From Chiloscyllium plagiosum (lineage: Eukaryota), in NCBI RefSeq assembly GCF_004010195.1, contig NC_057734.1, positions 44,291,606 to 44,355,605 on the forward strand: a stretch of DNA of 64,000 nucleotides, read 5' to 3'. This document shows, piece by piece, positions 1-63,377 of the stretch (positions are counted from its first letter, which is position 1; each line of letters begins with the position of its first letter). A model generated the notes under the pieces. The model saw only the letters and a list, made by a program, of their open reading frames with translations. It did no database searches and was not told the DNA's origin. The position numbers and the translations under genes were made by a program.

Positions 1-785
1 CAATCGAATAACGAACGTTTGGTTTAATTGCTATAACAGGATAATGGTGCATTCTATATAGTGCCAATAATCTGTGTTGATCTGACTTGAAATGTGTGCG
101 TCCTCGAAATGCGAATATTGCTTTCAATCACAACAAACTATATTGTATTAAAGCAATAGGCTGAGGTCATGGGCTCGAGTTCCACCGCTGCATATGGTGG
201 AATTTGAATTCGATTAGTAATGAAAATCTGGAAATGAAAGCAGGCTAATCTAATGACATCAATGTAGTCGTCACCGATATTTTTTAAAAAATTACTTCAT
301 TCATTAATGTCCTTTATGGATGGCAGCTCTGCTATCCTGAACAGGTCTGGGCCACATGTGATTCCACATCTACATAAATAGTTAACTTTTAAATGCCATC
401 TAAAATGTTCTAATAAGCAATTCGGATGCAAATGATCCCTACAAAGTCTGCTAAAAGGAATGAAACTGGACTGAGCTCCCAGCAATTACCTAGGCACGAG
501 AACCGGTAACAACGTACACCACAAAATTCCTTAATAATATGTTTTATTCATTCACGTGCATAGGCGTTGCTGATTGGGCCAGCATTCCTCGCCCATCCCT
601 AGTGGCTCTCATAAAGGTCTTAATGAGCTGTCTTCTTGAACTGCTGTAGCCCATCAATTGTTTGTAGACCACGATGTTATTCGGGAGGGACTTCCAGGAT
701 TTTGAACCAGTTACAGTGAATGAATAGCAGTGGTTTTCCAAGTCAGGTTTGTGGGTTACTTTGAGAAGAGCTTGCAGGTGGTGGT

Positions 786-1014
786 TGAAATGACTCCACT
801 AAAGCCGATATCCTGTCACTAAGCCACCTTTTATTTATACGTACATGATACTGACCTAGCTAGCTCAAAGCCGGCACCAGGAGTAACCAGAACACTTGAC
901 GCTCCTGTTAATATCTGTCAACCAGGATTCCCTGATTAGACTAGGATAACAGCCCCAGTCAGGGAACTCAAATTCTATGAGGTTCACCTGGCTTACCTCG
1001 TTCCAATCACTACA
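786..1014 (-). mobile_element. Short solo LTR, also present at 48137-48372
   Basis: TG...CA ends, 5-bp TSD GTGGT/ATGGT, interrupts an old LINE fragment at the same site in both duplicate copies. Confidence 0.6.
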
Positions 1015-2038
1015 ATGGTATTCTCATGCATTTGCAGTCCTTGTTCTTCTGAATGGAAGTGATAAAACCAGAAGTTGGACGAAAAGCCGTACAGGCCCAG
1101 GTTCTGAGGAAACGTCACCAGACCTGAGACGTTAACTCTGATTTCTCTTCACACATGCCGCCAGACCTGCTGAGCTTTTCCAGCAATTTCTGCTTTTGTT
1201 TCTGTTTTGCATCATCTGCAGTTCTTTTGGTTTTTAGATCCTGGATTTGGAAACTGCTGTCATAGGATCTTTGGCGAATTTGTCCAGTGCATCTTGTAGA
1301 TAGTGGACACTGCTGCTACTAATCGTTGGTTGTGGAGGGAATGTTGGTTTTGGACGTGGTACAAATCAATCGGATTGTTTTGATCTGGTTGGTATTAAGA
1401 CATTTGAATGTTGTTGGAGCTGCACTCGTCCAGGCAAATGTTAAGTACTTTTTATCACATTTCTGGTTTATACCTTGCAGAAGGTGAGCGTCAGGAGGCG
1501 AGTTCTGCCACGGTATTCCTGGACTCTGACCTTTTCTTACAACCATTGCATTTATATTACAACTCCAAATGTATTTCTGGTCAATAGTAACCACGAGGAT
1601 GTTGAAAGTGTGGGATTCTATGATGATAACGCCATTGAATGTTAAGGGGTGATGGTTGTAACTTCTCATTTTGGAGATGGTCACTGCCTACTACTTGCCA
1701 GCCAAGAATTAACAAAATTTTACAGCCAGTTTAATTATAGCTAACAAATATTTCCCCGGTCTTATTGCATTTGGACATGGAATGCTGCAATATCTGTAGA
1801 ACTGTAAATGGTGCTGAATGTTGTTTAATAGTCAGTGAACATTCTGACATCTGATTTTAATGAAGTGGGAGGATCATTGATGAAGCAGTTGAGAATGGTT
1901 AGGCCTCGGGCACTTCCCTAAATAACTCCTTCAGAGATGTCCCGGATATGTGATAAATGACCTTTAACAAACACAACCACTTTCCTGTGTGCTAGGTCAG
2001 ATTCCAACCAGCGATGCAAATTTTCCTCTAATTCCCAT

Positions 2039-5000
2039 TGTGATAATGCTGCTCCTTCAACAAGGCTATGTTGTCCTTTTTATCAGGAGGTCGTAAAAGC
2101 ATAGGTTCCAAAAAGTAGAGTTTTACAGCCACTTTGATTATAGCAAACCAATACTGTCTCAGGCTTTCAAATTTTTGAAAAAAACTTATACATGAAAGAG
2201 GAGTGGCCTGTTCTCCTGGCTCACCTTTACTCTAGTATGGGTTGTCAGCAAGCAGTAGAATTGAAAACGCTGCTGGACCCAAAGAAGGAGCTACAAGCTG
2301 GCCCTCCTCTCTCTCGGACATCTCTCCTGTAAGACCGTGTGTTTGATTTTACATGTTGTGTCAAGGGCTGTTTATGGGGATTGTTGCAAATGTTTGAAGC
2401 AACAGCATTATGTTGGGCTAGTCTGCTGGGTTTTCCAGTATGTTAAATTATTCGGTATTCTGTTCTCTTCTGTTTGTGTTTCATTTGGTAATCTTGAAGT
2501 GGAATTAACAGACAACCTGTTTGATCAGATCGTGTTGACAAACCAGGAGCAAATAAATGACACACCAGGTATCTTTAGCTCAGAAAACTTTACTGAGTCA
2601 CAGCAGAAAGATGAAAATTTAAAGCAAATGCATCAAATGTCACACACAGAAAAATAATCTGAATGTATCCCTGAATGTCATGCTCTTAAAAATGATGTCG
2701 TAATGAGGAAATGGAGACCATCACATATTCAGGCAGATGGGAAATGGGCAGACGTTCATCAAGTTGTATTACCAATGGGTTATAGAACAGAGATGTCTCG
2801 AGTTGTGCATGAGCTAACACTAGGGGGCCATTTACGAGTGAGCAAAGCTCAAGCTACAATGCAAACGCATTTTTGCTGGCCTGGACTGAACAATGATTAA
2901 GTGGAGCGGGGGATTTGGCTAGACAGCATTTAAAAGTATCACAGCATACAATGAAACAGGAAGCAGACAGAAAACAAAAACTCACAATTTTGCTATCGTG
3001 AATGAGGTGTTAATGTTACTTCCAGTGATAGGTGAACCTTTACAAGCAAAGTTTAATTGATCTTATCAAGTCGAAAGGAAAGTCAGTGACATGAGCTACC
3101 TGATAAGGACTCCGGGCAGAACGAAATCTCAGAGAGTGTACCGTGTGATTGTGCTCAAAAGGTATTATGGCAGGGAAGGAAAGCCAAAAGAAACTGTTAT
3201 TGGTTACAACACGGAGAGAAGAACCAAATTCAAAGGATTCTGAATAGGACATTCCTCAAATTTGACAATGAAGAAGTTGTCAAAAATTGGGATAAATTAT
3301 TGAGTTACCTTCCACAGGAAAATCGGAATGACCTAAAAGAGTTATTACTATCACATGAGGAGGCATGTGGAAATTAGCTGGGATACACTTACCTAATTAT
3401 GCATGATATAGATATAGGAGATGCTGTCCCGATTAAGCATCATCCTTATAGACATAATCTTTAAAGTTAGCACAAGTTCAAAAGGAGATTGAACGCATGC
3501 TCCAAGACAACATAATCAATGTGAGTTACAGTGACTGGAGCTCACCCATAGCAATGATGCTGAACCCAGATGGTACCTAACGGTTCTGTGTGGACTATTG
3601 CAAAATGAACTAAGTTACAAAAGCTGATGTCTGTCAGATTCCACGTTTGGAAGACTGTGTTGAAAAGGACAAGCAACTAAGTTGGACTTACCCAAAGGAT
3701 ACTGGCAGGCACTTTTGTTTGAAAAAGTGAAGGCAAGTTTGGCTTTCATAACGCTGAATGGATTGTATCAGTTTAAAGTCATGCCTTTTGGCGTGAAAAG
3801 ATGTGCCAGCCACATTTCGGAGACTAACCAATAAGGTCATTGTTGGATTACCCTACATATTGATGACCTGGTGATTTTTAATCACGCATGGAAGGAACAA
3901 TTGCAACATTTATCATCGTTGTTCGATGGACTTTGGAAGGCAGGCTTGGTGATAAACCTGGCTAAAAGTGAATTTGCCAAGCTCAAGTCACCTTCCTGTG
4001 TGGTGTTATTGGATAAATGGCTCCCTGGTATGCCAAAACAATGGTAATTGGGGAGTTTCCCATGTCATCGACAATAAAAGCAGTACTACAATTCCTGGGA
4101 TTGAATGGATTTTATCGAATAGTTATGCCAAGTTTTAGCAGTGTTGCTGCTCCATTCACTGAATTGCTAAGGAAAGACAAGAAGTTCCAATTGCCAGCAT
4201 ACTGACAGAGGCCTATTGACACATTTGAAAGCTGTGTTAACCACTGCCGCAGTATTAGCCACACAGAATTACACAAAGCCATTCAAGGTGGCTATTGATG
4301 CAAGTGATGTGGGTGTCAGTGCTGTTCTCTTGCAAGGAGATGACGAGAAGATGGAAAGATCTATTGGGTGTGTCTCCAGGAAATTGAATATTCATCAGCA
4401 GAAATATTCGACAGTTGAGAAGGAGTATTTGAGCTTAGTGTTAGTGTTATGACATTTCGATGTTTATGTTATCAGCAACATATCTGAGACAATCATATAC
4501 ACTGATCATAACCCATTGAAGTTTGTGGAGAAATTTAAGAACAAAAATTCCAGACTGTTTAGATGGGGCTTGTTGTTACAGCCATTCAATTTGAAAGTTG
4601 TACATATAGCAGGACAAGAAAATGTGATTGCTGATGCATTTTCAAGACTTGAATTAGAAACAGAGACGTTTGGTGGCAGGAGTAAAACAGACTGAAACAG
4701 AATGTAATAGTGCATGTTTGCATGTTTATAGTCAATGACATGTATGCATACGTTATAGAGTACTAACAGTTTAGGACTAACGGGATTTAAAATGAAGCCA
4801 TCTTTGGGTATTGATGGCCCATTTTTTAAAGGGGGGAGATGTGATGATGATGGCGCTCCTTTAAAATGGTGGCCAGTTATCCTATTTTAGCTTTGCCCTG
4901 GTTAGGGTGGTTAGCAAGAAGTAGAGTTGGAAGAGCTGTTGGACCGAAAAAAGCAGGTCCAAGCCGATCCTCCTCTCTCTGACATCTCCTCTGTAAGGCC

Positions 5001-7003
5001 CTGTACTTGATTTTACCTTTTGTGCAAAGGCGTGTTTATGGGGATTGTTGTAAGTCTTGGGAACAACATCATTAAATTGGGATAGTCTGCTGGATTTTTG
5101 GATAGGTTATGTTAGTCAGTATTATGTTCTCTTTTGTTTGGTTTCATTCGGTAAACTTAGAATAGCTTACTTTTTATTTGTCATTTCTACCATGTACAAC
5201 TGACACAGTAAAACGGGGCAGCTACATGGACAGCACAAACTATACATTCGTACGTGGCATGAAGTGCATAAGAAGTGCAAAACACGTAATGTACAGTGTA
5301 ATAGTAGAATGATAAATAATAGACATTTTTCTTGCAGCAGTTCGAAGTCGTGCAAAGAATTTTAGATGGGAAAGAGTCCGATTATACCGTGTTAAGGAGC
5401 CTGATGGCTTGGGGGAAGAAACTGCTGCACAGTCTGGCTGTGAGAGACTGAATGTTCTGGTATTTTCTGTCAGACGGCAGGAGAGGGAAGAGTTTGGATG
5501 AGGAGTGTGTGAGGTCTTCCACAATGCTCTTAGCCTTTTGGATGCAGGATTTGGTGTAAATGTCTGCAATGGAGGAAGAGAGATCCCAATGATCTTCTCA
5601 GCTGTCCTCACTATCTGTTGTAGAGTCTTATGATTTGAAATGGTGCAATTCCCGAATCAGGCAGTCATGCAGTAGCTCAAGAGTCTCTCAATGAAGTCTC
5701 TGTAGAATGTAATGAGGATGGGGGTTTGGGAACTGGGCTTTCCTCAGCCTGTATAGAAAGCAGAGACGCTGCTGGGATTTTTTGGTTGTGGAGCTGCTGT
5801 TAAGAGTCCAGGTGAGATTCTCCGCCAGATGTACACCAAGGAATTTCGTGCTCTTCATGATCTCCACGGGAGAGTCATCGATGTCTAGCAGAGAGTAGTT
5901 TCGCTGTGCACTCCTGTCAACAACCATGTCTTTCGTCTTTCAGTGGTTGCTGGCTGTGCACCAGTCCATTAGCGACTGCACCTCCTCGGTTTGCTGACTC
6001 ATCATTCATGCTGATGAGACCCTCCACAGTGACATTATCAGCGAACTTGATGATGTGATTCGACCTGTGCATCATTGCAAAGTCTTGTGTCAGCAGGGTG
6101 AACAGCAGTGGACTGAGCTGGAGGGCCCCGTGCTCAGTGTGATGATATTGGAGATGGTGTTCCCAATCCGGTCCGACTGTGGTCTCCCAATAAGGAAGTC
6201 CAGTTACAAAGGGAGGTATATAGGCCCAGCAGACTCAGCTTTCCAATCAGGTGCTGAAGAATGATGCAGAACTGAAGTCTCTGCTCTGACATCTCCTCTG
6301 TAAGGCCCTGTACTTGATTTTACCTTTTGTGCAAAGGCGTGTTTATGGGGATTGTTGTAAGTCTTGGGAACAACATCATTAAATTGGGATAGTCTGCTGG
6401 ATTTTTGGATAGGTTATGTTATCTGTAATGCACCTCCTCGGTTTGCTGACTCATCATTCATGCTGATGAGACCCTCCACAGTGACATCATCAGCGAACTT
6501 GATGATGTGATTCGACCTGTGCATCATTGCACAGTCTTGTGTCAGCAGGGTGAACAGCAGTGGACTGAGCACCCAGCCCTGGAGGGCCCCGTGCTCAGTG
6601 TGATGATATTGGAAATGGTGTTCCCAATCCGGTCCGACTGTGGTCTCCCAATAAGGAAGTCCAGGATCCAGTTACAAAGGGAGGTATATAGGCCCAGCAG
6701 ACTCAGCTTTCCAATCAGGTGCTGAAGAATGATGCAGAACTGAAGTCTCTGAATAGTAGCCTGATGTTCCTGTTCTTCTTCTCCAAGTGGGCGAGGGCCG
6801 AATGGAGGGTGGTGGAAATAGCATCTTCAGTTGAGCGGTTTAGCCGACACACGAACTGCAAGGTGTTCAGTTTTGTTTAAAAATTTGGTTTTGTTTAAAA
6901 ATAGGTGGTTTTACCAGCTGCATCACTCCTGGATATCCGTGTTACACCTGCATAACCCAACTCGCAAAGTTAGGGTCTGGGCTACTTTTTGAGAGGGTTA
7001 ACA
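2039..7003 (+). mobile_element. Degenerate Gmr1-like (Gypsy group) LTR retrotransposon, domain order IN-RT-RH
   Basis: LTRs 2039-~2495 and 4840-7003 (interrupted); TG..CA ends, TSD CCAT, PPT AAAGGGGGGAGA before 4840; integrase Zn-binding region GGHL..HFCWPGL at 2703-2900 precedes RT motifs (WSSPI, RFCVDY, KGYWQ, MPFG, IDDLV) and RNase H (DASDVGV, YSTVEKE, NVIADAFSR). Confidence 0.88.
5168..6870 (-). mobile_element. Rex1/Babar-type LINE 3' part inserted in the 3' LTR, with internal rearrangement
   Basis: Minus-strand peptides KFLGVHLAENLTW..KKSQQRL..RLRKA and RTAEKIIGISLP. Confidence 0.75.
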
Positions 7004-8892
7004 CCATTAACTCCAGTTTTGCTACAGCTCATTGGCAAGAAACTCAATGAAATGCGGCCTTGATGTTAATAGCTGTCATTCTCACCTCAATTTTGAAATT
7101 CGGCTTCTTGTCCATATTTGAACCAAAGTTGTAATGAGGTCAGGAGCTGAGTTAATCTGGCAATTAAACAGGGCGTGTTCGTGAGCAGCTTATTGCTAAG
7201 CAAGTGCTGCCTGATAGCACTGTTGGTGACACCTTCTATCATTTCACTGATGATCAATAGGAAACTGATGAAGTGGTAATTGACCAGGATAGTATTCGTC
7301 CTGATTTTTATGTAGAGGACATACCTGGGCAATTGTCCACATTGCTGAGTAAAAGCTACTCTTGTAGCTGTACTGTAATAGGTTGACTAAAGGTACGACA
7401 AGTTCTGGAGTACAAGTCTTCAGCACAATTGCCTGAATGATCTCAGGGCCAATTGCCTTTGCAGTACCCAGTGTCTCCATCAGTTTCATGATATCACGTG
7501 GAGTGAATCAAATTGGCTGAAATCTGGCATCTGTGATTCTGTGACCTCGAAAGAAGGCCGAGATAGATAATCCACTTAGCACTCTCAGATGAAGGTTGTT
7601 ACGAATGCTTCAGCATAATGAATTACACTAATGTGTTGGACTGTTCAATAAGTGAAGATGGGATAGTTGTTGAGTCTCCACCTCAATGAGTTATTTAATT
7701 GTCTACTATTATTGACAACTGGATGTGGCTTGAGTGCACAGCTTACACCTGAACCATTGATTGTGAGATCACTTAGCTCTGTCTATCACTTGCAGCTTAT
7801 GCTGTTTGTCAATCAATTAGTCCTGACTTGGAGCATCATTGGGTTGACACCTCATTTTGAGGTATTGTGATTTGCTCCTGCCATGCCGTACTGCAATCTT
7901 CATTGAGTGGAGGCTCGTGCCAAATGTAAGAGATCTGAAGTACTTCGGTAAAACAACAGCCTGGCCAGGTCAGTCTCATGGATCATATTAATCAGATAAC
8001 ATCCTGCATACTACCATTTTCTGGTATGTCATGTCCTACCAATAATTGCAGCCGAGGTGATGGTACCACATAGTATCCAGTCAGGAGGGAGTTGCTCTTA
8101 ACAATATTAACAGTTGTTTAAGTCTTTAACAGTTAGTTCTAATTCCATGAAATCTCATGACATCATGTAAACGATGTGCAAGGCAATCTCCTGTTAATTC
8201 TCTTGTAGCCTTTCTCATCTATCCCCACCATGAATCAATTAGCCCCCATTTTGACTTCATTTAGATGATGTATTGAATGTGGCAAAGGCACAGAATGGAC
8301 TCATGCTGGGCTGCTTTAATATTACTAACCAGAAGTGGATCTGTGGCTCCACTGTTGCTTCAGCTGGCCAAGTCCTATAGGATGTAACTGGTAGACTAGG
8401 TCTGTTGCAGGTGGTCAGGGAACTAAGAAGAGAGAAACACGTATAGATCCCATTGTCAACACTTTACCTTTAACTGATATCAGTCCGCAACAACTTTTAT
8501 AAGAGATGCAGTCCTTGTGAAATCGATGCAACCCTTTATGCTAAGGATACCATTTACCCTGTTATATGAACCAACAAATGTGATTAAATGGTATTAGTTT
8601 TGATTTACTAACTCAAGACTGAGCATCCGTGTGTCTGTATGTGCCATGAGAAGCAGCAGAATTATATTCAATCAGAATCAGTAATGTGATTGATAGCAGT
8701 TTGACTCAGCATATCTCCTTTACTCCGAACAATATCAAGTCAGGAGATCAACTCTCACATAATCAGAATTCAACAGAGCCAAAGCAAGCACCTTACCTAA
8801 AGAAAAGGTATCAACGTAACCAAACCACTGCACAAGACGGCGTTCATGCCACGTATTGTAGGAAACACGTGATTGACAGAACTAAACAATAT

Positions 8893-9100
8893 AGGCGAAA
8901 GTGAGGACTGCAGATGTTGGAGATCAGAGCTAAAAGTGTGTTGCTGGAAAAGCGCAGCAGGTCAGGCAGCATCCAAGGAGCAGGAGAATCGACGTTTCGG
9001 GCATGAGCCCTTCTTCAGGAAGGGCTCATGCCCGAAACGTCGATTCTCCTGCTCCTTGGATGCTGCCTGACCTGCTGCGCTTTTCCAGCAACACATTTTT
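8893..9100. mobile_element. Penelope-derived fold-back mini-element
   Basis: 77-bp perfect inverted repeat (8937-9013/9019-9095); 15-bp TSD AGAACTAAACAATAT; empty site in the paralog near 57700. Confidence 0.85.
8989..9020 (-). ncRNA. Minimal hammerhead ribozyme motif at the hairpin apex
   Basis: TC-CTGAAGA-A-GGGC-TCAT-GCCC-GAA-ACGT-C-GA. Confidence 0.55.
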
Positions 9101-10398: not shown

Positions 10399-10854
10399 CT
10401 GTGGTTCTGTTCGCCGAGCTGGAAGTTTTTGTTGCAAACGTTTCGTCCCCTGTCTAGGTGACATCCTCAGTGCTTGGGAGCCTCCTGTGAAGCGCTTCTG
10501 TGGTGTTTCCTCCGGCATTTATAGTGGCCTGTCCCTGCCGCTTCCGGTTGTCAGTTTCAGCTGTCCGCTGTAGTGGCCGGTATATTGGGTCCAGGTCGAT
10601 GTGTTTGTTGATGGAGTTTGTGCATGAGTGCCATGCTTCTAGGAATTCCCTGGCTGTTCTTTGTTTCGCTTGCCCTATAATGGTAGTGTTGTCCCTGTCA
10701 AATTCATGTTGCTTGTCGTCTGCGTGTGTGGCTACTAGGGATAGCTGGTCGTGTCGTTTCGTGGCTAGTTAATGTTCGTGGATGCGGATCCTTAGCTGTC
10801 TTCCTGTTTGTCCTATATAGTGTTTTGTGCAGTCCTTGCATGGGATTTTGTACA
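10399..10854 (-). mobile_element. Penelope-like element 3' fragment (GIY-YIG endonuclease plus hammerhead-bearing terminus)
   Basis: YKIPCKDCTKHYIGQTGRQLRIRIHEH; 14-bp TSD CTGGATAAACTATG (10385-98, 10855-68). Confidence 0.88.
10434..10473 (-). ncRNA. Minimal type-I hammerhead ribozyme motif
   Basis: GCA-CTGAGGA-T-GTCACCT-AGAC-AGGGGAC-GAA-ACGT-T-TGC: intact core, 6 of 7 bp stem II, palindromic helix III, 3-bp stem I. Confidence 0.7.
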
Positions 10855-10880
10855 CTGGATAAACTATGTTAAATGACAGA

Positions 10881-11293
10881 GGAGAAAGTGAGGGCTGCAG
10901 ACGCTGGCGAGTCAGAAGCAAAAAGTGTGGTGCTGGAAAAGCACAACAGGTCAGACACCATCCGAGGAGAAGGACAGTCAATGTTTCTGGCATAAACCTT
11001 TCCTCAGGAATGTTGAAGGTGTGAGGGAAGGGTGTTGAGACATATATGGTGGTGGGAGGAGGCTGAGAAATGGAGGAGGATAACTTCTTCATAGTGGGAA
11101 TCCTTGGAAGAGGCTTCGCAGTCAGGTTTTCAGCAACTAGGAGGAAGTGAGGACTGCAGATGCTGGAGAGTTAAAGTCAAAAACGCACTTGTCCCTCCAC
11201 ATTCCTGATGAAGGGCTTATGCCCGAACCGTCGACTCACCTGCTTTCTGGATGCTGCCTGACCAGCTATGCTTTTCCAGCACCACACGTTTTG
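10881..11293. mobile_element. Internally deleted Penelope-type element with inverted termini and a degenerate hammerhead (11205-11232)
   Basis: GAAAGTGAGG(G/A)CTGCAGA termini; CTGATGAAGGGCTTATGCCCGAAC; about 17-bp TSD at 10863-79 and 11294-310. Confidence 0.7.
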
Positions 11294-12319
11294 ACTATGT
11301 TAACTAACAGAATCAACAGATCGAGTCCAAGGTATGAGTTGTGCTCCTCCTGTGCAGCCATAACCCTGTCTGCCTCCCTGTGACTGAGCACACTATGACC
11401 TACATACCACTGTTTGCTATGATCTGCCTGTACTGATCGCAGAACAAAAGATTTTCACTGCGCTAGGTGCCTGTGTCGACAAAAAAAATCAAAGCAAATC
11501 AAATATTTTAACTAATGCATGCAAGGAGGTGTTCAATTACACTCCCATGACTCGCAAATAGTTGTGGCTTTGGTTCACAAAATACCGTTACACGTGCCAT
11601 TCAGGACGAAAAATCTACCTTTCATTAGCTTCGTATACTTCACATGTTCTAACTGCCAACTAAATGCTTAATGTTAGTTGTTCATGAACCCAAACAGTTT
11701 TAAAAAATACAACCTTGTTATAGTTAAGCGCGGTAGATTTATTTAAAGCTAAATTCTACCTAAAAACATTGGAAAGTTAACATATTTTCCTAATGAAATT
11801 ACATTGCACTTAAAATGACTAAATTTATAATTAGCTATTCCTAAAAGGTATGTAATGTTCTGACTGGTCCGAAAGTACAAGTGTAACCAGTTTTCGGGAC
11901 TTAAACTAAGATTTAGCTCAGATATATCCTGATCCTTTGCTAAAGGTTTATTGGCTCGTACTGACATGGTTTCGAGTTGTGTCATGAAATCATTCAGGGA
12001 CTCCCGCTATCTTTGGGAGTCCGACGTACCTGAATTGCACCTCATCTTAACAAATTACAGACTTAGAGTGGGTTTTCCTTTTTTGCTGACAGGTTATCAA
12101 AGAGGAAATAAGGTTATTCTTTCTGCCTTCCATTTCCTGCTTTCAGACATATGTCCGAGATGATATTCAGTGTTTCTCTCAACAAGTTTCCACACTGCCA
12201 CTATTCTTATTCACCCTTTTCATCCATGTTGTCCCTTATATAGTGGGCTGTTTTTGTCTTTCATTTTATTTCACCCTTCAAGGGGAAACATCTCCACTGG
12301 CTGTAATTATGCTGAGCAT

Positions 12320-17035: not shown

Positions 17036-17375
17036 AGGCGAAAGTGAGGACTGCAGATGCTGGAGATCCGAGTCTGGATTAGTGTGGTGCTGGAAAAGGC
17101 AGCATCCAAGGAGCAGGAAAATAGACGTTTCGGGCAAAAGCACTTCATCAGGAATGCTAACTCTGATTTCTTCTCACAGATGCTGCCAGATCTGCTGTGT
17201 TTTTCCAGCAATTTCTGTTTTTGTTCCATTTCGATTCCAGTGCTGAAGAAGGATTATAGGACCTGAAACGTTAGCCCTGTTTTGTCTCCAGAGGTCTATC
17301 AGTCTTTCTGTGCTTCTCAGGCAATTTCTGCTTTAGTTTGTTTCAGATTTTCAGCATTCGCACTTCATTCCTTTC
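17036..17375. mobile_element. Cluster of Penelope-type terminal fragments with hammerhead-like motifs (17122-17152 minus; 17243-17272 plus)
   Basis: Reverse complement CTGATGAAGTGCTTTTGCCCGAAACGTC; plus-strand CTGAAGAAGGATTATAGGACCTGAAACGTT. Confidence 0.65.
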
Positions 17376-24634: not shown

Positions 24635-24725
24635 ACAAGGTCAGAAGTAACTCGATACCAGATTATAGTCCAACACGTTTATTTGAATTCACAAGCTTTC
24701 TGAGCAGTGCTCCTTGATCAGGTGC
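24635..24725 (-). mobile_element. Penelope-type terminal fragment with a degenerate AGCT-type hammerhead (24690-24724)
   Basis: Reverse complement CAC-CTGATCA-A-GGAGC-ACT-GCTCA-GAA-AGCT-T-GTG; flanking sequence related to 43198-43307. Confidence 0.5.
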
Positions 24726-26559
24726 CTATTAACTCCCATTACTCAAGAATCCCCAATTCGTATTACCTTTCTATAGTTCATCGTCCTTGATCAGTTGCAA
24801 ACGAAGAGAACATTGAAGTAACATTGACCAAGATGTCAGAAGGTCCAGGTTCGCCATGGAAAATGGTAAGAAGCAATGGAGAGAAAGGAATTAATTGTTG
24901 AAAAGCAAATTTCAGTGAGTTGAGAAGGCTTCAGACTTTGATAAATTGGAATTCGTTGGCACAGGATAAGTATGGATAGGAAATGCAGAGTCACTGTCCA
25001 TAAACGTGTGTACCTCATTTGGTGTAGTGTTTATCAGAGGGTGGGTGAATTGAAAAGTTAGTCGAAAAAAGGTGTGAGGATAAGTCTAGTAACGACAGAT
25101 CAGAGTTTCACTTCAATTTGAAAAGGTTGTTGAAACACTGAAGTAGCATGATAGTGACAGTTACTTGAATAGATTTAGCTTAATTAAGCAGGACAAGAGG
25201 TGATCTTTTTAATAGACCTGGTAAACTAACTTTGTTGTTTTTGTTTACTAGTTTATATAGTGTTGTGTGGTGCTCATGAAATTCAAAATGACGTTCCATG
25301 AAGAGACTCACACAAGAGATTTGTTCACAAACCTAACGCTCATGGAATGGAAATTTGGTTAATCAAAGTTGGTTAAGTAAGAAGAGAGAGAATCGTGGTG
25401 ACTGGTTGGACGTAAGGATTGCCGAGAGGTCGTTAGTAGGATCATTGCATCGGTTGATCCCTTTCATTGGCCTGAACATGGGAGCATAATTGACAAAATA
25501 CTGAGGTGTTTGGAATTGTGAAAAGTATATGATGGATTTCAAGAAAATAGGTTATTCCAGAAAATAGTTGACCATGGCAAGTAACATTCGTGCCGTGCAA
25601 AGTCTAAGCAATGATGATTTCCAGAAGGAGGGAGTCTAAAAATCGCCCCTTGACATCAATGGTATTGCCACTACTGAATCACTCACTATTAACATCGCGT
25701 AGATTTTCTTTGAACAGAAATTGAACTGGATTAATGACATTAATACTATGGCTTCAGCGATGCTATGAATCCTGCATCCAGTGACTCATCACCTAACTAC
25801 CCAAAGCATGTTTGTGATCTACAAGACACAAGTCACGAGTGTGGGGGAAGGCTGTCCCTTTGCCTGGAGAATTTCAGCTATTGGAAAATGACGAGCATGA
25901 AAGCTTGGGAAGGATTAAAGTATGAAGACCACTGGCGATCTGTTGCAAGGGGTCTGTGGAATGCTACACTAGTCAAAGGACCACTGTGGCAGCATGGGAT
26001 AAGGATAGTGGAATGTTCCTACACCAATTAGCAGACTACGGTTGAGGCTGAAAGGTCATTATGGCGGTGTGAGATAACAACAATTAGCAAAGTCTGCCTC
26101 GCCTGCTAAATGTCATCATGGCAGGTTGGGACAGGTCGTGACAATATTTATTTAGGACATGGCATTAAATATTTAATTAATAGTTAGTCGAGTCAGCCTG
26201 CTTGAGACCCTTGACAGTAAAATATCTAATCCTGACATTAGAATAACATTAAGTAGGGTCTGGGATGGAAGACCATTGTTGCAGAGGTGTCAGTAAAATA
26301 TCTAATCATGACATTAGACTAATATTAAGTAGAATGTAGGAAAAACCATAGTGGCAGAAGTAGAGCAACATTGGTTTACTGTGTAGCTGGAGTGAGGTAA
26401 TTCTAACTAACACAGTTAGGCATGCTGATAAGCTAAAAAAAAAACATTCAAAAATGGTGTAAAGAGCCAAAGACCTTGAGGTTTGGGGGCATTCAAGAAT
26501 TTGCTTTCTGAGTGCAATGGTTTTTTGTTTGCAAATAAAAGACCTCATCCTTGAAGAAC

Positions 26560-27637
26560 TTTCGACGTCAAACGTCCAATATGATCGTATCATCTCTACG
26601 CTTGTTCGTTCATCATTACTCCTTCATTTATAAGCGCAATAATACACTTCAATGGGAGTCAACTGGTGGATTTTGATATTAAACGTTGCCCCATATTGCT
26701 AACTCCATCCACAGGTATCAGTTAATGTTTTAAAGAGAGCACATTTGGCAACTGCACATTCATAACGGAAGCGTTGATCCATCTTCATTACCACCACCGT
26801 GCTTGGGATGGATTTTGATTACTTTCAGTAACCCAAGACTGAGCAGTCGTGAGACATTATGTCCTTTCGTCAGCAGCAAAATTGTATTCAACAAAAATCT
26901 TTAACTTCTGATCCACCATATCCCTAACTCAGCCATTACCATTAATTCTGTTGCAATGCAGAACGTGGAAGACCATGCCCAGAACAGCACCATACATATT
27001 TAAAATTAAAACATCAACCTGGTGAAATTACAACACAGAATTACTTGCATACCAACTAACTGAAACGCATGTGATGAACCAACAATGGATCAGATGCAAA
27101 TTCTGCTGTCCTGCCACAATCAATTGTGAATGGTAGTGGACTGTTAAACAATTCAGTGGATGGAAAGGCTGATCATCTACTCCCAATGTTCTGGATGTAA
27201 GTTTCATCACTGCGCTGGAAGGTTAGCTTTCAGACCTTTCGCCACCATACTTGATAACATCATCAGTGAGCCCCCGATGAAGCGCTGGTTTTATGTCCCG
27301 CTTTCTTTTTATGTGTTTAGGTTTGCATGAGTTGGTGATGTCATTTCCTGTATTGAAATCAAACCTTCCTGCTCAGTGAGCAAACTTACATCCAGAACCT
27401 CAACCTCAGCTACAAATCTACTTAGAACTCACTAATCTTACTGTTAAAAGAGCCCAGTGTAACAGGGAAGGCTGAAGCATTTGCAACAATCTTCAGTCAA
27501 AAGTGCCATGTTGGCAATCCAACTTGGCCTCCTTCAAAGGTTCCCAACATCACAGATCCCATGTCTTCAGCCTCTTCAATTCACCCTACGTGATTTTAAG
27601 AAACGATTGATGACACTAGATACTGAAAAGGCACTGT
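26560..27637 (+). repeat. Near-identical copy of 37719-38803 flanked by a 45-bp direct repeat
   Basis: Direct comparison; flanks 26516-26560 and 27638-27682 differ at 1 position. Confidence 0.95.
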
Positions 27638-28116: not shown

Positions 28117-29180
28117 TAGATTAGAGTGGCGCTGGAAAAGCACAGCAAGTCAGACAGCATCCGAGGAGCAGGAAAATCAACGTTTTGGCCAAAAGCCCTT
28201 CAGCTGGAATGGAGGCAGGAAGCCTCCAAGGTGGAGACATAATGCTGAGCTGGAAGTTTGGAACTGGGGTAAGGTGGAGGGAGGGGAAATGAGGAAACTG
28301 GTCCACAATGATGCCCTGCGGTTGAAGTGTTCCGAGGTGGTAGATGAGGCATTCTTCCTCTAGGTGGTGAGGGAGTGGTGGTGGAGGAGGCCCAGGACTT
28401 GCATGTCCCTGGCAGAGTGGGAGGAGGAGTTGAAATGTTAGCCCACAGGGAGATGGGGTTGATTGGTGCGGGTGTCCCAGTGATGTTCCCCAAAGCACTC
28501 TGTGAGGAGGCAACCATCTCCCCAATGTAGAGGAGACTGTGTCAGGAGAAACTGATACAATAAATGACATTGGTGGATGTGCAGGTGAAATTTTTATGGA
28601 TGTGGAAGGATCCTTTGGGGCCTTGGCTGGAGGTGAGGAAGGAGGTGTGGGCGCAGGTTTGCAATTCCTGCTGTGGCAGGGGAAGGTGCCAGGACAGAAG
28701 GGTAGGTTGTTTGGGGGCACGTGGACCTAACCAGGTAGTTTTTTGCGGAAAGTGGAAAGGGGTGGTGAGGGAAATATGTCTCTGGTGGTGGGGTCCGTTT
28801 GGAGGTGACGGAAATGTCAGCGGATGATGCGGTTTATGCAAAGGTTGGTAAGGTGAAAGGTGAGGGCGGGGGGTGCTGTCCTTGTTACGTTTGGAGAGGC
28901 GGGGTTTGAGGGCAGAGGTGCGGGATGTGGATGAGATGCATTGGAGGGCATCTTCAACCATGCGGTCTCTAAAGTAGGAGGCCATCTGGTGTGTTCTGTG
29001 GTGGAAATGGTCCTCCTGTGAGCAGATGCGGCAGAGGCAGAGGAATTGGGAATACTGGATGGCATTTTTGCAGGAGGTAGGGTGGGAAGAAGTGTAATCC
29101 AGGTAGCTGTGGGAGTCAGTGGGTTTGTAAAAAATGTCAGTGTCAAGTCGGTCATCATAAATGGAGATGGAGAGGTCCAG
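28117..29180 (-). mobile_element. Penelope-like element (RT C-terminus, GIY-YIG, terminal repeat)
   Basis: KGSFHIHKNFTCTSTNVIYCIS, EEECLIYHLGTLQPQGI; same terminus family as 8893-9100. Confidence 0.85.
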
Positions 29181-29544
29181 GATAGCGTCTTTCCCCCCTG
29201 GTTACATCCCCTTTCACCTCACTGAAATTGACACTGACAATTCTTGCCTTTTGTCCCTTGCCATTTTTCATAAATAAACAAAACATGATAGTATGATTAA
29301 TGATCCTTTAAAGGTCCCCTTATTTCTCAGAATTAGATATTGCATGGCTCCTCTTCCTTTGCCCACGGATGCAGGCTGGTGGAATTGGCAAACACGTGGC
29401 AAGTGTAAATTGAGGGAAAAATGTCAACTGGGGTTCTCTAGTAGCAAAAAGAAAGAAGGCCCATGTCGGAGCAGATCTACCTGGTGGAGCATTTAGGCAA
29501 CTCGTTGAAGGCAGAAGAGCAGTGTGGGAAAGTAATTATTAAAC

Positions 29545-37718: not shown

Positions 37719-38803
37719 TTTCGACGTCAAACGTCCAATATGATCGTATCATCTCTACGCTTGCTCGTTAATTATTACTCCTTCATTTATAAGCGCAATA
37801 ATACACTTCAATGGGAGTCAACTGGTCGATTTTGATATTAAACGTTGCCCCATATTGCTAATTCCATCCACAGGTATCAGTTAATGTTTTAAAGAGAGCA
37901 CATTTGGCAACTGCACATTCATAACGGAAGCGTTGATCCATCTCCATTACCACCGTGCTAAGTGGGATGGATTTTGATTACTTTCAGTAACCCAAGGCTG
38001 AGCAGTCGTGAGACATTATGTCCTTTCGTCAGCAGCAAAATTGTATTCAACAAAAATCTTTAACTTCTGGTCCACCATATCCCTAACTCAGCCATTACCA
38101 TTAATTCTGTTTCAATGCAGAAGGTAGAAGACCATGCCCAGAACAGCACCATACATATTTAAAATTAAAACATCAGCCTGGTGAAGTTACAGCACAGAAT
38201 TACTTGCATACCAACTAACTGAAACGGCATGTGATGAACCAACAATGGATCAGATGCAAATTCTGCTGTCCTGCCACAATCAATTGTGAATGGTAGTGGA
38301 CTGTTAAACAATTCAGTGGACGGAAAGGCTGATCAACTACTCCAATGTTCTGGATGTAAGTTTCATCACTGCGTTGGAAGGTTAGCTTTCAGACCTTTCG
38401 CCACCATACTTGATAACATCATCAGTGAGCCCCCGATGAAGCGCTGGTTTTATGTCCCGCTTTCTTTTTATGTGTTTAGGTTTGCATGAGTTGGTGATGT
38501 CATTTCCTGTATTGAAATCAAACCTTCCTGCTCAGTGAGCAAACTTACATCCAGAACCTCAACCTCAGCTACAAATCTACTTAGAACTCACTAATTTCCA
38601 ATCTTACTGTTAAAAGAGCCCAGTGTAACAGGGAAGGCTGAAGCATTTGCAACAATCTTCAGTCAAAAGTGCCATGTTGGCAATCCAACTTGGCCTCCTT
38701 CAAAGGTTCCCAACATCACAGATCCCATGTCTTCAGCCTCTTCAATTCACCCTACGTGATTTTAAGAAACGATTGATGGCACTAGATACTGAAAAGGCAC
38801 TGT
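37719..38803 (+). repeat. Donor segment for the 26560-27637 copy
   Basis: The old LINE sequence continues naturally past 38803 here but is cut off in the other copy. Confidence 0.9.
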
Positions 38804-41778: not shown

Positions 41779-41915
41779 GTAAGTAAACATGCTAATGTGC
41801 CTTATGGTTATTTTTACGTTGTTTTTTGTGTTGTCACGCTTGAGTTTAACGGCCGTAAACGAAAAACAATTGTAATTGCAACAAATGATTGATCTCTGAC
41901 TTGCTGCTTCACCAG

Positions 41916-48400: not shown

Positions 48401-49339
48401 ATCCTTCCACATGGAAGTGGTAAAACCAGACATTGCACGAAAAGCTTATCAGCCCCGGGTTCTGAGGAAGGGTAATCAGACGTGGGACATTAACTCTAAT
48501 TTCTCTTCACAAATGCTACCAGAACTGCTGAGATTTTCCAGGAACTTGTTTTTGTTTCTGGTTTACAGCAACCACAGTTCTTTTGGTTTTTAGATCCTGG
48601 GTTTGGAAGCTGCTCTGTTAGGATCATTGGCGAATTTGCAGTGCATCTTTTAGATAGTGAACACTGCTGTTACTACATTATTGGTCGTAGAGAGAATTAA
48701 TGTTTTGGATGTGTGACAATGAATTGGACTGCTTTGGTCTGGTTGTCGTCAAGACGTTTGAATATTGTTGGAGCTGCACTCATCCAGGCAAGTGGGAAGT
48801 GTTTTTTGTCACATTGCTGGTTTATACCTAGCAGCAGATGAACAGATTTTGGGGCGTCATGAGATATATTACTCGCCGCGGCATTCCTACACTCTGACCT
48901 GCTCTGACAACCATTGCATTTGGAGAATATGAGAAGTACAAATATCTTTCTGGTCAATTGTAACCCCCAGGGCATTAATATCGTCGGATTCACTGATAGT
49001 ATCGCCATTGAATGGTAAGGGACGATGATTTCAATTTCCGGTTTTGTAGCGTGTCACTGCCTGATAATCTGCCAACCAACGTTTAAATATTGTCCAGGTC
49101 TTATTGCATTTGGACATGGATTGCTGCAATATCTGTAGAACTGCAAATGTTGCTGAATGTTGTGCAATAGTGATTGAACATTCCGAACTTCTGATTTTAT
49201 GATGGAGGGAGGATCACTGATGAAGCAGCTGAGAATGATGTCCTTGAGATGTGTTAGCTGCAGTGTAGCAACCACACCGACTTTCCTATGTGTCAGGTAG
49301 GACTCCAACCAGCGATGTGAATTTTCCTCTGATCCGCAT

Positions 49340-50427: not shown

Positions 50428-53400
50428 TAGAACATAGAACAGAGAAAATTACAGCACAGTACAGGGCCTTCGTCCCTCGATGTTGCATCGACCTGTGAAA
50501 CCAATCTGAAGCCAATCTAACCTATATTATTCCATTATCATTCATATACTTATCCAATCACCGTTTCAAAGCTGTTCAAGTTGGCGAGTCTACTACTGTT
50601 ACAGGCAGGGTGTTACGTTCTGAGTAAAGAACTTACTCCTTACATCTGTCCTGTGTCTATCACCCCTCCATTTAAAGCCATGCCCCCCTTGTGCTAGCCA
50701 TCACCATCAGAGGAAAAAGGCTTTCACTGTTGACCCGATCTAATCTTCTGATCATCTTGTATGACTCTATGAAGTCACCTCCCAACCTCCTTCTCTCTAA
50801 TGGAAACAGCCTCAAATCCCTCAGCCTTTCCCCTTAAAATACTCCCTCCATACCAGGCAACATCTTGATAAATCTCTTCTGCGCCCTTTCCAATGCTTCC
50901 AAGTCCTTCCTACAATACAGCGACCAGAAATGCACAATACTCCAAGTGTTGCTGCACCAGAAGTTTTGACTGCAATATGACTTCATGCCTCTGAAACACA
51001 ATCCCTGTACCAAAACAGCTAACACACTGTATGCCTTCTTAACAACCCTATCAACCTGGGTGTCAATTTTCAAAAAATTATATACATAGACACCAACATC
51101 ACTCTGCTCATCCACATACAAAGAACCTTACCAATAGCCCAGTGCTCTGCATTCGTGTTGTTCCTTCCAAAGTGAATGGCCTCACACATTTCTGCATTAA
51201 ACAATGTTTGCGCCGCTCAGCCCAACTCTGCAGCTTATCTATGTCTCTCTGTAACGTGCAGCCTTGCATTCGTGTTGTTCCTTCCAAAGTGAATGGCCTC
51301 ACACATTTCTGCATTAAACTATGTTTGCCACCGCTCAGCCCAACTCTGCAGCTTATCTATGTCTCTCTGTAACGTGCAGCCTTCTTCTGCATTGTCCACA
51401 ACTCCACTGACCTTAGTGTCATTCACAAACCCTTCCTTCTGCACCCTCCTCCAGGTCATTTATAAAAATGACAGACAGCAGTGGTCCCAAAATGCATCCT
51501 TGTGGTACACCACGAGTAACTGAACTCCAGGATGAACTTTTCACATCAACCACCATTCTCTGTGGTCTTTCAGCTAGCCAATTCCTGATCCAAACTGCTA
51601 AGGCACACTTCAATCCCACGCCTACATGTTTTCTGCAATAGATTACCGTGGGGAATCTTATCAAACACTTTATTGAAATCCATATGCACCAAATCAATCG
51701 CTTTAGCCTCATTCACCTTCGTTCACCTTCTCAAGGAACTCAAAATGTTTTGTGAGACATAACTTACCCCTTCACAAAACCGTGTTGACTATACCTAATC
51801 AAATTATTCCTTTATAGATTATTATAAGTCCTACCTCTTATAATTCTTTCCAACACTTTACCCACAAATCATGTAAGGCTCACTAGTCTACTCCCCTTCT
51901 TGAATGAAGCGGGCAACATTTGCTGTCCTTCAGTCTTCTGGCACTATTCCTGTAGAAAATGACGACATAAAAATCAAAACCAAAGGTTCTGAAATATCCT
52001 CCCTGGTTTCCCAGAGAATCCTACGATAAGTTCCATCCAGTCCAGAGGACTCAAATTTTTTCACACTTTCCAGAATTGCTAACAACCCCTCCTTATGAAC
52101 CTCAATCCCGTCTAGTCTAATACTCTGTATCTCAGTATTATCCTCGACAATATTGTCTTTTTCCTGTGTAAATACTGCTGAAAAATATTCATTTAGCACC
52201 TCTCCTATCTCCTCGGACTCCATATACAACTTCCCACGACTGTCCTTGAGTGGCCCTAATCTTACTCTACTCATTCTTTTATCTCTGGCGTACCAATATA
52301 AAGCTTTAGGGGTTATCCTTGACCCTACCTGTCAAAGACTTCTCATGTCCCCCCATGGCTCTTCTTAGTTCTCTTTTTAGGCTCTTCCTGGCTAACTTTT
52401 AATACTTAAGCACCCTAACTGGGTCTTCACGTCATATCTTTACATAAGCCTCCTTCCTCCCCTCGCTCGACCACTTCCTCCCTGCCTGACAGATGCATAC
52501 TTATCAAGGACACGCAGTAGCTGTTCTTTGAATAAGCTACACATTTCAATTATGCCCATTCCCAAGTTTCCTTCCCCATCCTATGCATTCTAAATCTTGC
52601 TTAGTCACATCATAATTGCCTTTCACCAGCTATAAACCTTGCCCTTTTGTATATAAGTATCTCTTTCCACCATTAAAGTAAATGTTAGCAAACTGTGGTC
52701 ACCATCACCAAAGTGCTCAAATCTAACTCTTGGCCTGGCTTGCCCTTTTGTATATAAGTATCCCTTTCCATCATTAAAGTAAATGTTAGCAAACTGTGGT
52801 CACCATCACCAAAGTGCTCACCTACCCCCAAATCTAACTCTTGGCCTGGCTCATTACCCAGTACCAAATCCAATGTGGCCTCGCTTCTTGTTGTCCTATT
52901 TCCATATTAGTGAGGAGAAAGTGAGGAGAACTTTCCTTCCCACATGGTTGATGATGCCCTCCAGTGCATCTCCTCCACTTCTCGCATCTGCACTATTGAA
53001 ACATCCCCCCTCCTCCCAACAATCGCAACGAGGGCAGAACACCTCTGGTACTCATCTTCCACCCCACCAACCTCATTCACTGCCATTCTCACCACCTGAG
53101 ACATATTTCCCTCGCCGGCCCTATCTATGATTCAGAGAGACCATTCTCTCCATGACTCCCTTGTCAGGTCCGCGGACCCCACCAACCCAAACTCCCCTCC
53201 CGGCATCTTCCACTGCCATTACAAAAAGTGCAAAAACCTGCACCGACACCTCCCGCCTCCCTCCATCCAAGTCCCCAAAGGATCCTTCCACATCAATCAG
53301 AAGTTGACCTGTTCTTCCACACACATCATTTACTGCATGCATTGCACCTCATGTGGTCTCTTCTACATTGGGAAGACAGGACGCCAACTTGTGGAATATT

Positions 53401-55555
53401 TCAGAGAACATCTCTGGGACACCCGCACTAACCATCCCCATCAGCCTGTGGCTGAACACTTTAACTTTCCCTCCCACTCTGCCAAGGACTTGTAGGTCCT
53501 GGGCCTCCACCATTGTCAAACCCTAACCAACCAACATATGGAGGAAGAATGCCTCATATTCCACCTTGGGACCCCTCAACCACACAGAATCACTGTGGAT
53601 TTCACCAGTTTCCCTATTCCCCTCCTTCTATCTTATCCCAATCTCCCAACTCAGCACTGTTCTCTTGAATGGTCCTACCAGCCTATCTTCCTTCCAATCT
53701 ATCTGCCCCACATTCCTGTCTAACCTATCACTTTCAACTCCCATCGTCCTCTACCTATCCCTTTCCCAGCTACCTTCCCCACAGCCCGTCCCCCTCCCTT
53801 TATCTCTCAACGCCCTTGGCCAACTAGCCTCATTCATGATGAAAGGCTTATGCCTGAACCGTCGATTCATCTGCTCCTCAGATGCTGCCTGACCAGTTGC
53901 GCCTTCCCAGGACCACACTCTTCGACGAGCTACATACTGTGTCAGGAAATCCTCCTGCACACATTGGACAAAAACTGACCCATCTATAGTACTCGTACTG
54001 TAACATTTCCAACCAATATTTGGAAACTTAAAGTCACCTATAACAACTACCCTATTACTTTCGCTCCTATCCAGAATCATCTTTGCAATCCTTTATTCTA
54101 CATCTCTAGAGCATTTCAGAGGGCTATAGAAAATTCCCAACAGGGTGATCTCTCCTTTCTTGTTTCTAATTTCATCCTATACTACCTCAGTACACGAGTC
54201 CTCATTAAACATTCTTTCTGCCACCGTGATATGGTCCTTGACTAACAATGCCACACCTCCCCCTCTTTTACCACATTCCCTGTTCTTACTAAAACATCTA
54301 AATCGCGGAACCTGCAACAACCGTTCCTGTCCCTGCTTGATTCGTGTCTTTGAAATGGCCACAACATCGAAGTCCCGGGTACCAACCATGCTGCAAGTTC
54401 ACCCACCTTATTCCGGACATTCCTAGCATGAAAGTAGACACACTTCAAACCACCTTCTGGCCTGCCGGTACACTCTTGCGACCTTTAAACCTTATTTATG
54501 ATCTCACTAGTCTCAACTTCCTGTCAGTGGAGCTCCAATTCAGGTTACCATTCCCCTGCAGAATTAGTTTAAACCCTCCTGGAGATCATTGCCAAATCCC
54601 AATCTTGCGCCCCCTCCCCCCCCCCCGCCCTCACTACCAGGGTATTGGTACCTCTCTGGTTCAGGTGTAGACCATCCCGTTTGTAGAGGTCCCACCTATG
54701 CCAGCTTAAGCCCCAATTATTCAGATATCCGAATCCCTCCCTCCTGCACCATCCATGTAGCCTCTTGTTCAACTGGTCGCTTTCACCATTCCTCACCTCG
54801 TTTGCACGTGGCATGCATAACAAATCAGGCATAACAACAAACCAGAGATAATAACTCCCCCACCTTAGCTCGCTGAATGTCTGTCTTATGTCCACATCCC
54901 CATTTCTACTTATGCCTTAGTGCCTATCTGGACCATGATCAAGTGTGCTCTCCCTCTTCCTTAAAAATTTCAAAAACATGATCTGAAACATCATGAATCC
55001 TGGAACCTGGGAGTGAAGACACCAACCGCCAGTTTCTCTCGTTCCCACAGAATCTCCTATCTGTCTCCCTAACTGTGGTGTCCACAATGACTAATGCTCT
55101 ATTCCTCTTCCCCCTTTCCTTCTGAGCAACAGGGACAGATTCTGCACCAGAGACCTGTACCCCATAGTTTACCCCTGGTAAGTCATCCCTCCAACAGTAT
55201 CCAAAATGGAATACCTATTATTGAGGGGAACGGCCACAGAGGATCCCTGCATTGTCTGCCAGTTCCCTTTCTGTCCAGTGATTGTAACCCATCCACCGTT
55301 TTTCCTGTGCCTGAGGCCTGACTACCTCCCTGTAAGTCCTCTCAATTGCCCTCTCAGCCTCCCAAATTATCCAAACTTCATCTAGCTCCAGCTCTAATTC
55401 CCTAATGCGGTTTTTGAGGAGCTGGAGTTGGGTGCACTTCTCACAGATTAAGTCAGTGGGGACACTAGTGGTGAACATTATCTCCCTTAGTCTACAGGAG
55501 GCGCATTCAATTGCCCTACCATCCAAACCCACTGTTCTGAATTCCCGAAGAGAAT
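50428..55555 (-). mobile_element. Near full-length degenerate CR1 LINE (ORF1 Zn-finger/coiled-coil/esterase; ORF2 EN-RT)
   Basis: [58 protein letters not shown]; absent from duplicate copy A. Confidence 0.92.
52910..53925 (+). mobile_element. Penelope-like element nested in the CR1
   Basis: TCSSTHIIYCMHCTSCGLFYIGKTGRQL..FREH GIY-YIG; degenerate hammerhead at about 53835-53862. Confidence 0.88.
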
Positions 55556-63228: not shown

Positions 63229-63377
63229 AATTGCCCCAAATCATGATCATTTACTTTTAATTCTCTTTGTATTGCCGCTCTTTGCATGATCCTGATGAGT
63301 TGCAATAATTGATATGGTTGAAACTGAATTACAGTCATTCCTTATGGCCGTTTAACACTAACGTTTTATTTCGCCAG

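What the first reader, a model, noticed from the sequence alone, without database searches (positions are those of the whole stretch)
10434..10473. Several unrelated repeat families share a minimal hammerhead ribozyme with an extra core nucleotide and a palindromic helix III
Seen: CTGANGA + one extra nt + stem II + GAA + 4-nt palindrome + H, closed by a 2-3 bp stem I, at 10434-73 (ACGT, stem I GCA/TGC), 8989-9020 and 17122-52 (ACGT, GGGC/GCCC-type stem II), 27230-69 and 38389-428 (stem I TCA/TGA, AGGT variant) and 24690-724 (AGCT, stem I CAC/GTG). More decayed copies lie near 1104, 11205, 17243, 28180, 48462 and 53835. Stems change sequence between families while pairing is kept. Established: Penelope-like elements carry minimal hammerheads thought to cleave as dimers. 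Inference: this locus holds more than 10 ribozyme relics from 3-4 families, and 10434-73 is the best candidate for activity.
Basis: partly seen in the sequence, partly recalled or inferred. Interest (0 to 1): 0.7.

Follow-up and report, generated by a model that had tools for sequence, protein, structure and literature searches.

The report
Shark Penelope hammerheads, with cut record
The motifs are real copies of a tiny self-cutting RNA already described at the ends of Penelope-type jumping genes, most of them decayed here, and six U6 RNA copies elsewhere in the genome are joined exactly at its predicted cut, which likely means it sometimes does cut in living cells.

Summary
The motifs are real (mostly minus strand) but of a known kind: minimal type I hammerheads of Penelope-like elements (PLEs). 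The "extra core nucleotide" and palindromic helix III are both listed in Cervera and De la Pena 2014. 10434-73 is an intact copy at the 3' end of a solo, 5'-truncated Poseidon insertion with a 14-bp target duplication. There the extra base is the middle letter of the ORF's start codon. The other sites are Poseidon or Neptune-type ends, not unrelated families. Three patterns give 126,633 exact matches genome-wide (controls 0), and this window is no richer than random DNA. About 2% or fewer family A copies start at the cut, so templates were mostly uncut. However, 6 of 29 U6 3' ends examined join three of these families, all 6 at the predicted scissile bond, indirect evidence of cleavage in vivo. 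That lead came from earlier notes of this scan on other DNA of this genome; I re-tested it. Activity of the 10434 copy itself is not shown; it has no tandem partner.

The parts
10399..10854 (-). 5'-truncated Poseidon-clade PLE insertion (family A): end of the GIY-YIG endonuclease coding region, hammerhead, short tail
   Evidence: Translation; ORF list; weak Pfam GIY-YIG hit E 0.047, below cut-off; same C-terminus in family loci
10434..10473 (-). Intact minimal type I hammerhead: stem I 10473-71 with 10436-34, core C3-A9 10470-64, extra U 10463, stem II 10462-45, G12-A14 10444-42, helix III palindrome 10441-38, H17 10437; predicted cut between 10437 and 10436
10462..10464 (-). Start codon of the PLE ORF, formed by A9, the extra base and G10.1; here it runs only into the tail and flank
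   Evidence: Frame continues into the Poseidon N-terminal domain in partial tandem L074, through one in-frame stop in that copy; Met19 of P0001 aligns with Met1 of full-length trematode homologue P0002
10399..10436 (-). Tail downstream of the cut site (short 3'-end class, about 40 nt; the other class is about 80 nt)
   Evidence: Two 3'-end classes among 30 loci; matches the two RT start sites described in PMC11167929
10385..10398 (.). Target-site duplication, left copy (14 bp)
10855..10868 (.). Target-site duplication, right copy (14 bp)
8893..9100 (.). Family B (Neptune-type) fold-back insertion; intact core at 8988-9021(-), second arm lacks the 5' core; 15-bp target duplication 8878-92 and 9101-15
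10880..11019 (-).
11182..11296 (+). Family B end, A15.1 mutated
17036..17156 (-). Family B end, stem II mismatch and broken stem I
17236..17370 (+). Older family E/F end, core present, stem I decayed; Neptune-type by tail likeness only
24641..24730 (-). Family D (Neptune-type) end, G-C inner helix III pair, G8 changed to C
27185..27300 (-). Family C (Poseidon sister family) end, helix III palindrome mutated
38344..38459 (-). Duplicate of the 27185-27300 copy (1089-bp duplication)
28121..29218 (-). Longer decayed Neptune-type copy: RT and GIY-YIG remnants, then family B hammerhead relic near 28180
52783..53926 (+). Longer decayed Neptune-type copy: cysteine linker and GIY-YIG remnant, C-rich 3' region, family B relic at 53835
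   Evidence: (GIY-YIG E 0.0055, below cut-off)
1100..1244 (+). Decayed family E end, inside a 2.4-kb segment 75% like 47355-49691
48456..48600 (+). Decayed family E end

Best explanation
These motifs are the minimal hammerheads carried at the ends of Penelope-like retrotransposons, left behind as truncated and mostly decayed insertions, and the parent ribozymes likely cut only rarely, as protein-assisted RNA dimers. Shown: the 10434 copy ends a Poseidon insertion with target duplication and tail; its extra core base is the middle letter of the ORF start codon; stems covary across families; nearly all family A copies keep the sequence on both sides of the cut; six U6 copies join three families at the predicted bond. 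Inferred: an element RNA starting upstream of the ribozyme is reverse-transcribed from an internal tail site, usually uncut, giving these stubs. Occasionally two element RNAs pair through the palindromic helix III and crossed stem I, probably held by the element's protein, and cut after H17. The 5'-OH product can then be ligated to U6 (RtcB-type) and retrotransposed. The solo copy at 10434 is predicted to be sequence-competent but idle unless paired in trans.
For: PLE context. Published hallmarks. Copy numbers against 0 controls: 12,252 (A and part of C), 94,973 (B), 19,408 (D, G8 and inner helix III left free). Covariation on 7 hand-picked copies from four families: 97.6% of cells paired, 4 of 6 pairs with two-sided change, slid controls 14-34%. 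Start codon overlap; same layout reported for Anolis Poseidon. Uncut templates: 0 of 30 family B loci anchored downstream begin at the cut, 23 of 30 begin within about 10 nt of the core or inside it (by eye); 100 family A matches with foreign sequence at the cut, roughly 2% after filter correction. U6 junctions: 6 of 29 ends, offsets all zero, 5-T runs; U6 reaches the Rfam gathering score in 3 of the 6. RtcB needs a 5'-OH partner (PMC6789731 passages). Anolis ribozyme cut only with its protein.
Against: No cleavage assay. The 10434 motif has no favoured fold alone (z 0.06), and the double-hammerhead scores -12.7 against -19.3 kcal/mol for the best dimer fold. Ordinary junctions show no clear excess at the cut: about 76 loci against 45 at a site 12 nt downstream and 19 upstream; the surplus is fold-backs on a local palindrome. 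RNA reads cross the site with no pile-up of ends (poly(A) single-cell library, ill suited). The U6 set is small: three loci hold only short U6 ends, four are one B subfamily, one arm of L205 differs at 3 of its first 4 bases, and 41 further U6 ends were fetched but not classified. The covariation set was chosen by me from intact-looking copies.
Confidence: 0.8

Rival explanations
1. The motif is kept as a protein-binding or start-codon/N-terminal coding signal and no longer cuts RNA in vivo.
For: In Poseidon families the core overlaps the first codons, conserved to a trematode homologue. Most templates were uncut. Anolis insertions did not need cleavage and no RNA-seq ends lay at the cut. Naiads lack hammerheads and thrive.
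Against: Neptune-type families keep core and stems with a different extra base and no start codon there. Stem I covaries on both sides of the pairs. U6 joins fall at the scissile bond in three families with different local sequence.
Confidence: 0.12
2. The U6 junctions come from reverse-transcriptase template switching or a protein nuclease, not from ribozyme cut plus ligation.
For: 8 of the 29 U6 ends join the head of a SINE-like repeat (label by eye), so U6 is captured at RNA 5' ends by more than one route.
Against: A switch at an RNA end still needs an RNA that begins at +1. There is no T-run homology before the cut. The PLE joins all have 5 T, the SINE joins 2 to 6.
Confidence: 0.15
3. The 10434-73 copy is an active ribozyme with a local role in the immunoglobulin light-chain locus around it.
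For: Its sequence equals a family majority form; family RNA is present in one run.
Against: Solo copy, no same-family partner in 104 kb; neighbours on its strand have other stem I sequences; window density is ordinary; intactness fits a young insertion.
Confidence: 0.04

Closest known systems
Minimal hammerheads (min-HHR) in pLTRs of metazoan PLEs; Cervera and De la Pena 2014, PMC4209133 (parts 1-2 of 4 read; supplement file 2 searched, file 1 not available)
   Same: Type I, no loop 3, base between 9 and 10.1, G10.1-C11.1, palindromic 15.2-16.2, many covarying families, mostly solo truncated copies, close pairs on opposite strands.
   Different: Shorter stem I (2-4 bp against 4-5). Count here over 126,000 exact matches against about 9,000 (Xenopus) and 4,000 (coelacanth), by different search methods. 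No shark named in the parts I saw.
Poseidon element of Anolis (PAc); Frangieh et al. 2024, PMC11167929 (parts 1-2 of 4 read)
   Same: ORF starts at the base of stem II; two 3' ends 30-40 nt apart; tail is the start of the next ORF; uncut RNA is the main template.
   Different: They found no RNA ends at the cut in vivo; here U6 junctions mark it. In family A the upstream ORF reads on to a stop inside loop II; in family C that frame shows earlier stops.
U6/LINE-1 chimeric pseudogenes made by RtcB ligation; Moldovan et al. 2019, PMC6789731 (abstract and passages)
   Same: U6 3' end with about five T joined to a retroelement and inserted with a target duplication.
   Different: L1 junctions are scattered; here all six fall at one predicted ribozyme bond.
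Metazoan non-LTR retrozymes; bioRxiv 10.64898/2026.07.22.740005 (parts 1-2 of 5 and passages)
   Same: Type I hammerheads derived from PLE pLTRs, reported in one chondrichthyan.
   Different: The window's copies are dispersed or fold-back ends, not tandem arrays with a hammerhead in each unit.

Membership tests
PLE minimal hammerhead | Conserved core C3-A9 and G12-A14 with U16.1-H17 | tested here: met
   Invariant in alignment A2; met at 10434 and 8989, broken in most other window copies
PLE minimal hammerhead | One unpaired base between 9 and 10.1; G10.1-C11.1 | tested here: met
   117 distinct motifs in fetched loci: extra base T 57, A 56, other 4; closing pair G-C 87, G-T 28, other 2; the scan itself required the extra base
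PLE minimal hammerhead | Palindromic 15.2-16.2 without loop 3 | tested here: met
   G-C form in 95 of first 100 family D matches with these positions free; family C 20 intact, about 72 CpG-decayed of 100 (by eye)
PLE minimal hammerhead | Stem covariation between families | tested here: met
   hand-picked 7 copies
PLE minimal hammerhead | Self-cleavage as a dimer | not testable with these tools
   Indirect only: U6 junctions at +1
Penelope/Poseidon clade (families A, C) | Single ORF, RT with DKG motif then C-terminal GIY-YIG, no CX2-5CxxC linker | tested here: met
   L073, L074, L077 frames; RVT_1 E 1.4e-9; 50% identity over 610 aa between P0001 and P0002; clade marks from PMC8557442 passages; family C by endonuclease remnants only; no tree built
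Penelope/Poseidon clade (families A, C) | Partial tandems, inverted 5' copies, 30-40 nt tail | tested here: met
   15 divergent inverted pairs and 1 same-strand pair among the first 100 matches; partial tandem L074; two tail ends
Neptune clade (families B, D, E/F) | CX2-5CxxC linker before GIY-YIG | tested here: inconclusive
   Linker-like cysteines upstream of family B; family D shows a GIY-YIG remnant in 1 of 12 loci, linker not seen; E/F not traced; Neptune and Nematis not told apart
Non-LTR retrozyme | Tandem non-coding units each with a hammerhead | tested here: not met
   No direct tandem in the window

The most novel reading that the evidence does not exclude
Shark genomes hold a fossil record that PLE minimal hammerheads cut in the germ line: U6 snRNA was ligated to the 5'-OH product at the exact scissile bond in at least three families of two PLE clades, including the family of 10434-73, and copied back by the PLE machinery. 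In Poseidon elements the cut would also remove the start codon, which lies inside the ribozyme core, so cleavage would switch the RNA off as a message.
Probability: 0.65. Interest if true: 0.65.

Novelty: new member of a known kind. Interest (0 to 1): 0.4.

Why it matters
As reported, the finding re-finds a 2014 motif. What matters lies outside the window. Whether these weak ribozymes cut in animals is open: the 2014 paper had no in vivo evidence, the 2021 paper calls their function unclear, and the 2024 paper saw no RNA ends at the cut. U6 junctions at the predicted bond give a base-exact, testable sign that they do, and tie PLEs to RtcB ligation. The genome also holds well over 100,000 intact-looking cores, about one per 28 kb, with young families that supply ready constructs.

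Tried and rejected
Rfam scan of the window: no hammerhead family among 11 weak matches; the models expect longer stems. DNA search of the own genome with the element found nothing because common words are skipped. Read-through of the endonuclease ORF into loop II as a conserved feature: holds in family A; the same frame carries earlier stops in the decayed family C copies, so set aside as probably incidental. Excess of ordinary 5' junctions at the cut: not shown; 16 fold-back pairs centred at the cut against 6 on a downstream 4-bp palindrome can be microhomology. That filter also excluded T-rich upstream sequence, so it could not see U6 joins. A U6-plus-family-A pattern found 0; a shorter one found the L205 arm. 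No RNA holder listed on record. Run X20 laid no reads; X19 laid 450 family reads, none on the unique downstream flank, 32 at 99% or more: no evidence either way for this copy. Cross-family dimers between 10470 and 9018 rejected: stem I is crossed in a double hammerhead and the two differ. Lunse et al. 2017 was not held; seen only as a title and one review passage. The 41 further U6 ends were not classified, so the U6 count rests on 29 ends.

Full report
Observation. The six main sites read as hammerheads on the minus strand. A strict descriptor (core, optional extra base, stem II of 3 bp or more, 4-nt palindrome, stem I of 2 bp or more) passes 10470 and 9018; 17243 passes without stem I; Markov shuffles give 0.025 per window. 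Rfam finds no hammerhead. 27230 and 38389 are one copy in a 1089-bp duplication, and its non-palindromic helix III occurs in 0 of the first 100 listed of 3,055 family matches. 24690 has G8C, against G in 98 of the first 100 of 19,408. 17122 has broken stems. 8989 is intact but locked in a fold-back hairpin.

What 10434-73 is. It lies at the 3' end of a 456-bp insertion, 10399-10854, flanked by a 14-bp target duplication. Upstream on its strand is the C-terminal part of a GIY-YIG endonuclease with one in-frame stop. The family has 12,252 exact matches to a 24-letter pattern, control 0 (this includes part of sister family C). Longer loci show RT with the DKG motif and no cysteine linker, the marks of the Penelope/Poseidon clade (PMC8557442 passages); no tree was built. 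The nearest named protein is from a bamboo shark at 91%, and the window holds immunoglobulin light-chain segments, so the host is likely a shark. Among the first 100 matches there are 15 divergent inverted pairs and one same-strand pair. Copies end about 40 or about 80 nt after the cut, as in the two RT start sites of Anolis Poseidon.

The extra nucleotide. Cervera and De la Pena 2014 list a base between 9 and 10.1, the G10.1-C11.1 pair and palindromic 15.2-16.2 as features of PLE minimal hammerheads. In families A and C that base is the middle letter of a start codon made of A9, the extra U and G10.1. In the partial tandem L074 this frame runs on, through one in-frame stop in that copy, into the Poseidon N-terminal domain, and a full-length trematode homologue starts at the aligned methionine. 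Frangieh 2024 reports the same layout in Anolis. Families B and D have A there and no start codon.

The other families. Family B ends follow GIY-YIG remnants with a cysteine linker at 28121-29218 and 52783-53926; family D follows a GIY-YIG remnant in 1 of 12 loci; E/F were not traced. Intact family B cores number 94,973, control 0. Six seeds give 24 hits in the window, 12 in 40 kb of flank and 44 in 150 kb of 15 random stretches, so the locus is not special. On 7 intact-looking copies that I chose from four families, 97.6% of cells pair and all three stem I pairs and the inner helix III pair show two-sided changes; slid controls pair 14-34%. An earlier alignment with two other family D rows was out of register and was not counted.

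Were templates cut? Mostly not. None of 30 family B loci anchored downstream starts at the cut; 23 start near or inside the core (by eye), as expected if they copy the uncut front of an RNA. A filter for foreign sequence before the cut gives 100 family A matches (about 76 loci) against 45 and 19 at control sites, about 2% of copies after correction; the surplus is fold-backs on a palindrome. Family B gives 236, and many of the 30 loci read are internal deletions or inversions. RNA reads of one run cross the site without an end pile-up, in a library unfit to see such ends.

U6 junctions. Earlier notes of this scan claimed U6 copies joined at the cut. I tested this with a recalled U6 end motif: 29 matches, control 1. 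Six loci join these families: L206, L208, L213, L228 (B), L230 (D) and L205 (A, the family of 10434). All six are at the predicted bond with five T; L230 fits the longer of two family D forms seen; in L205 the left arm is exact and the right arm differs at 3 of its first 4 bases, inside a 13-bp target duplication. Rfam confirms U6 in L205, L213 and L228; the other three hold short U6 ends (20 of the 29 loci were scanned). My references covered only about 60 nt before to 110 nt after each cut, so joins deep inside PLE coding DNA would be missed. Eight other ends join a SINE-like head with 2 to 6 T (by eye). RtcB joins U6 cyclic phosphate only to 5'-OH ends (PMC6789731 passages), which a hammerhead leaves (established knowledge). 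A wider pattern gave 68 ends; the 41 new loci were fetched, many confirmed as U6, but not classified. Searches for U6 with Penelope and for in vivo cleavage listed no paper whose title or abstract start concerns such junctions; subscription papers and unseen supplements may hold one.

Activity of this copy. Its sequence equals a family majority form, but no same-family partner lies in 104 kb, the monomer fold is no better than shuffles, and the double-hammerhead is 6.6 kcal/mol above the best dimer fold. The Anolis ribozyme cut only with its protein, which is predicted to dimerise. I infer rare, protein-assisted dimer cleavage for the family and no role for this insertion.

Verdict. A correct catch of a known motif, with overstated variants. 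The value is the family-level record of cleavage, found earlier by this scan on other DNA and supported here on 29 ends.

Noticed in passing
window 41900-42265(+), 44858-45220(+), 63362-63715(+): Immunoglobulin light-chain cluster: a V segment apparently joined to J in one germline frame (V-set E 1.9e-19), a C1-set exon, and a second V-like relic.
   Followed up: partly
L143 (G000:C94233, about 7000-7630, minus strand): Array of nine 69-nt units, each running from the first base after the predicted family A cut to the long tail end; units nearly identical, so perhaps one junction amplified; unplaced contig.
   Followed up: partly
L210, L212, L214, L225, L226, L227, L229, L233 near 1500: Eight U6 3' ends joined to the head of a tRNA-type SINE-like repeat (label by eye) with variable T runs.
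   Followed up: no
L211, L216, L217 near 1500: U6 ends joined to what looks like LINE coding DNA (by eye).
   Followed up: no
window 10454-10464(-): In family A the endonuclease ORF stops 8 nt after the start codon of the next unit, both inside stem II, so tandem ORFs would overlap; not evident in family C.
   Followed up: partly
window 10399-10436(-) and family loci: The long tail of families A and C holds a 7-bp inverted repeat around an A/C-rich stretch that spans the short 3' end, like the stem-loop at the Anolis RT start.
   Followed up: no
window 2-2389 and 47355-49691; 26560-27637 and 37719-38803: Two segmental repeats (75% and 97%) that duplicate hammerhead relics.
   Followed up: partly
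P0002: An 824-aa trematode Poseidon protein is 50% identical over 610 aa to the shark protein P0001, high for that distance; horizontal transfer not tested.
   Followed up: no
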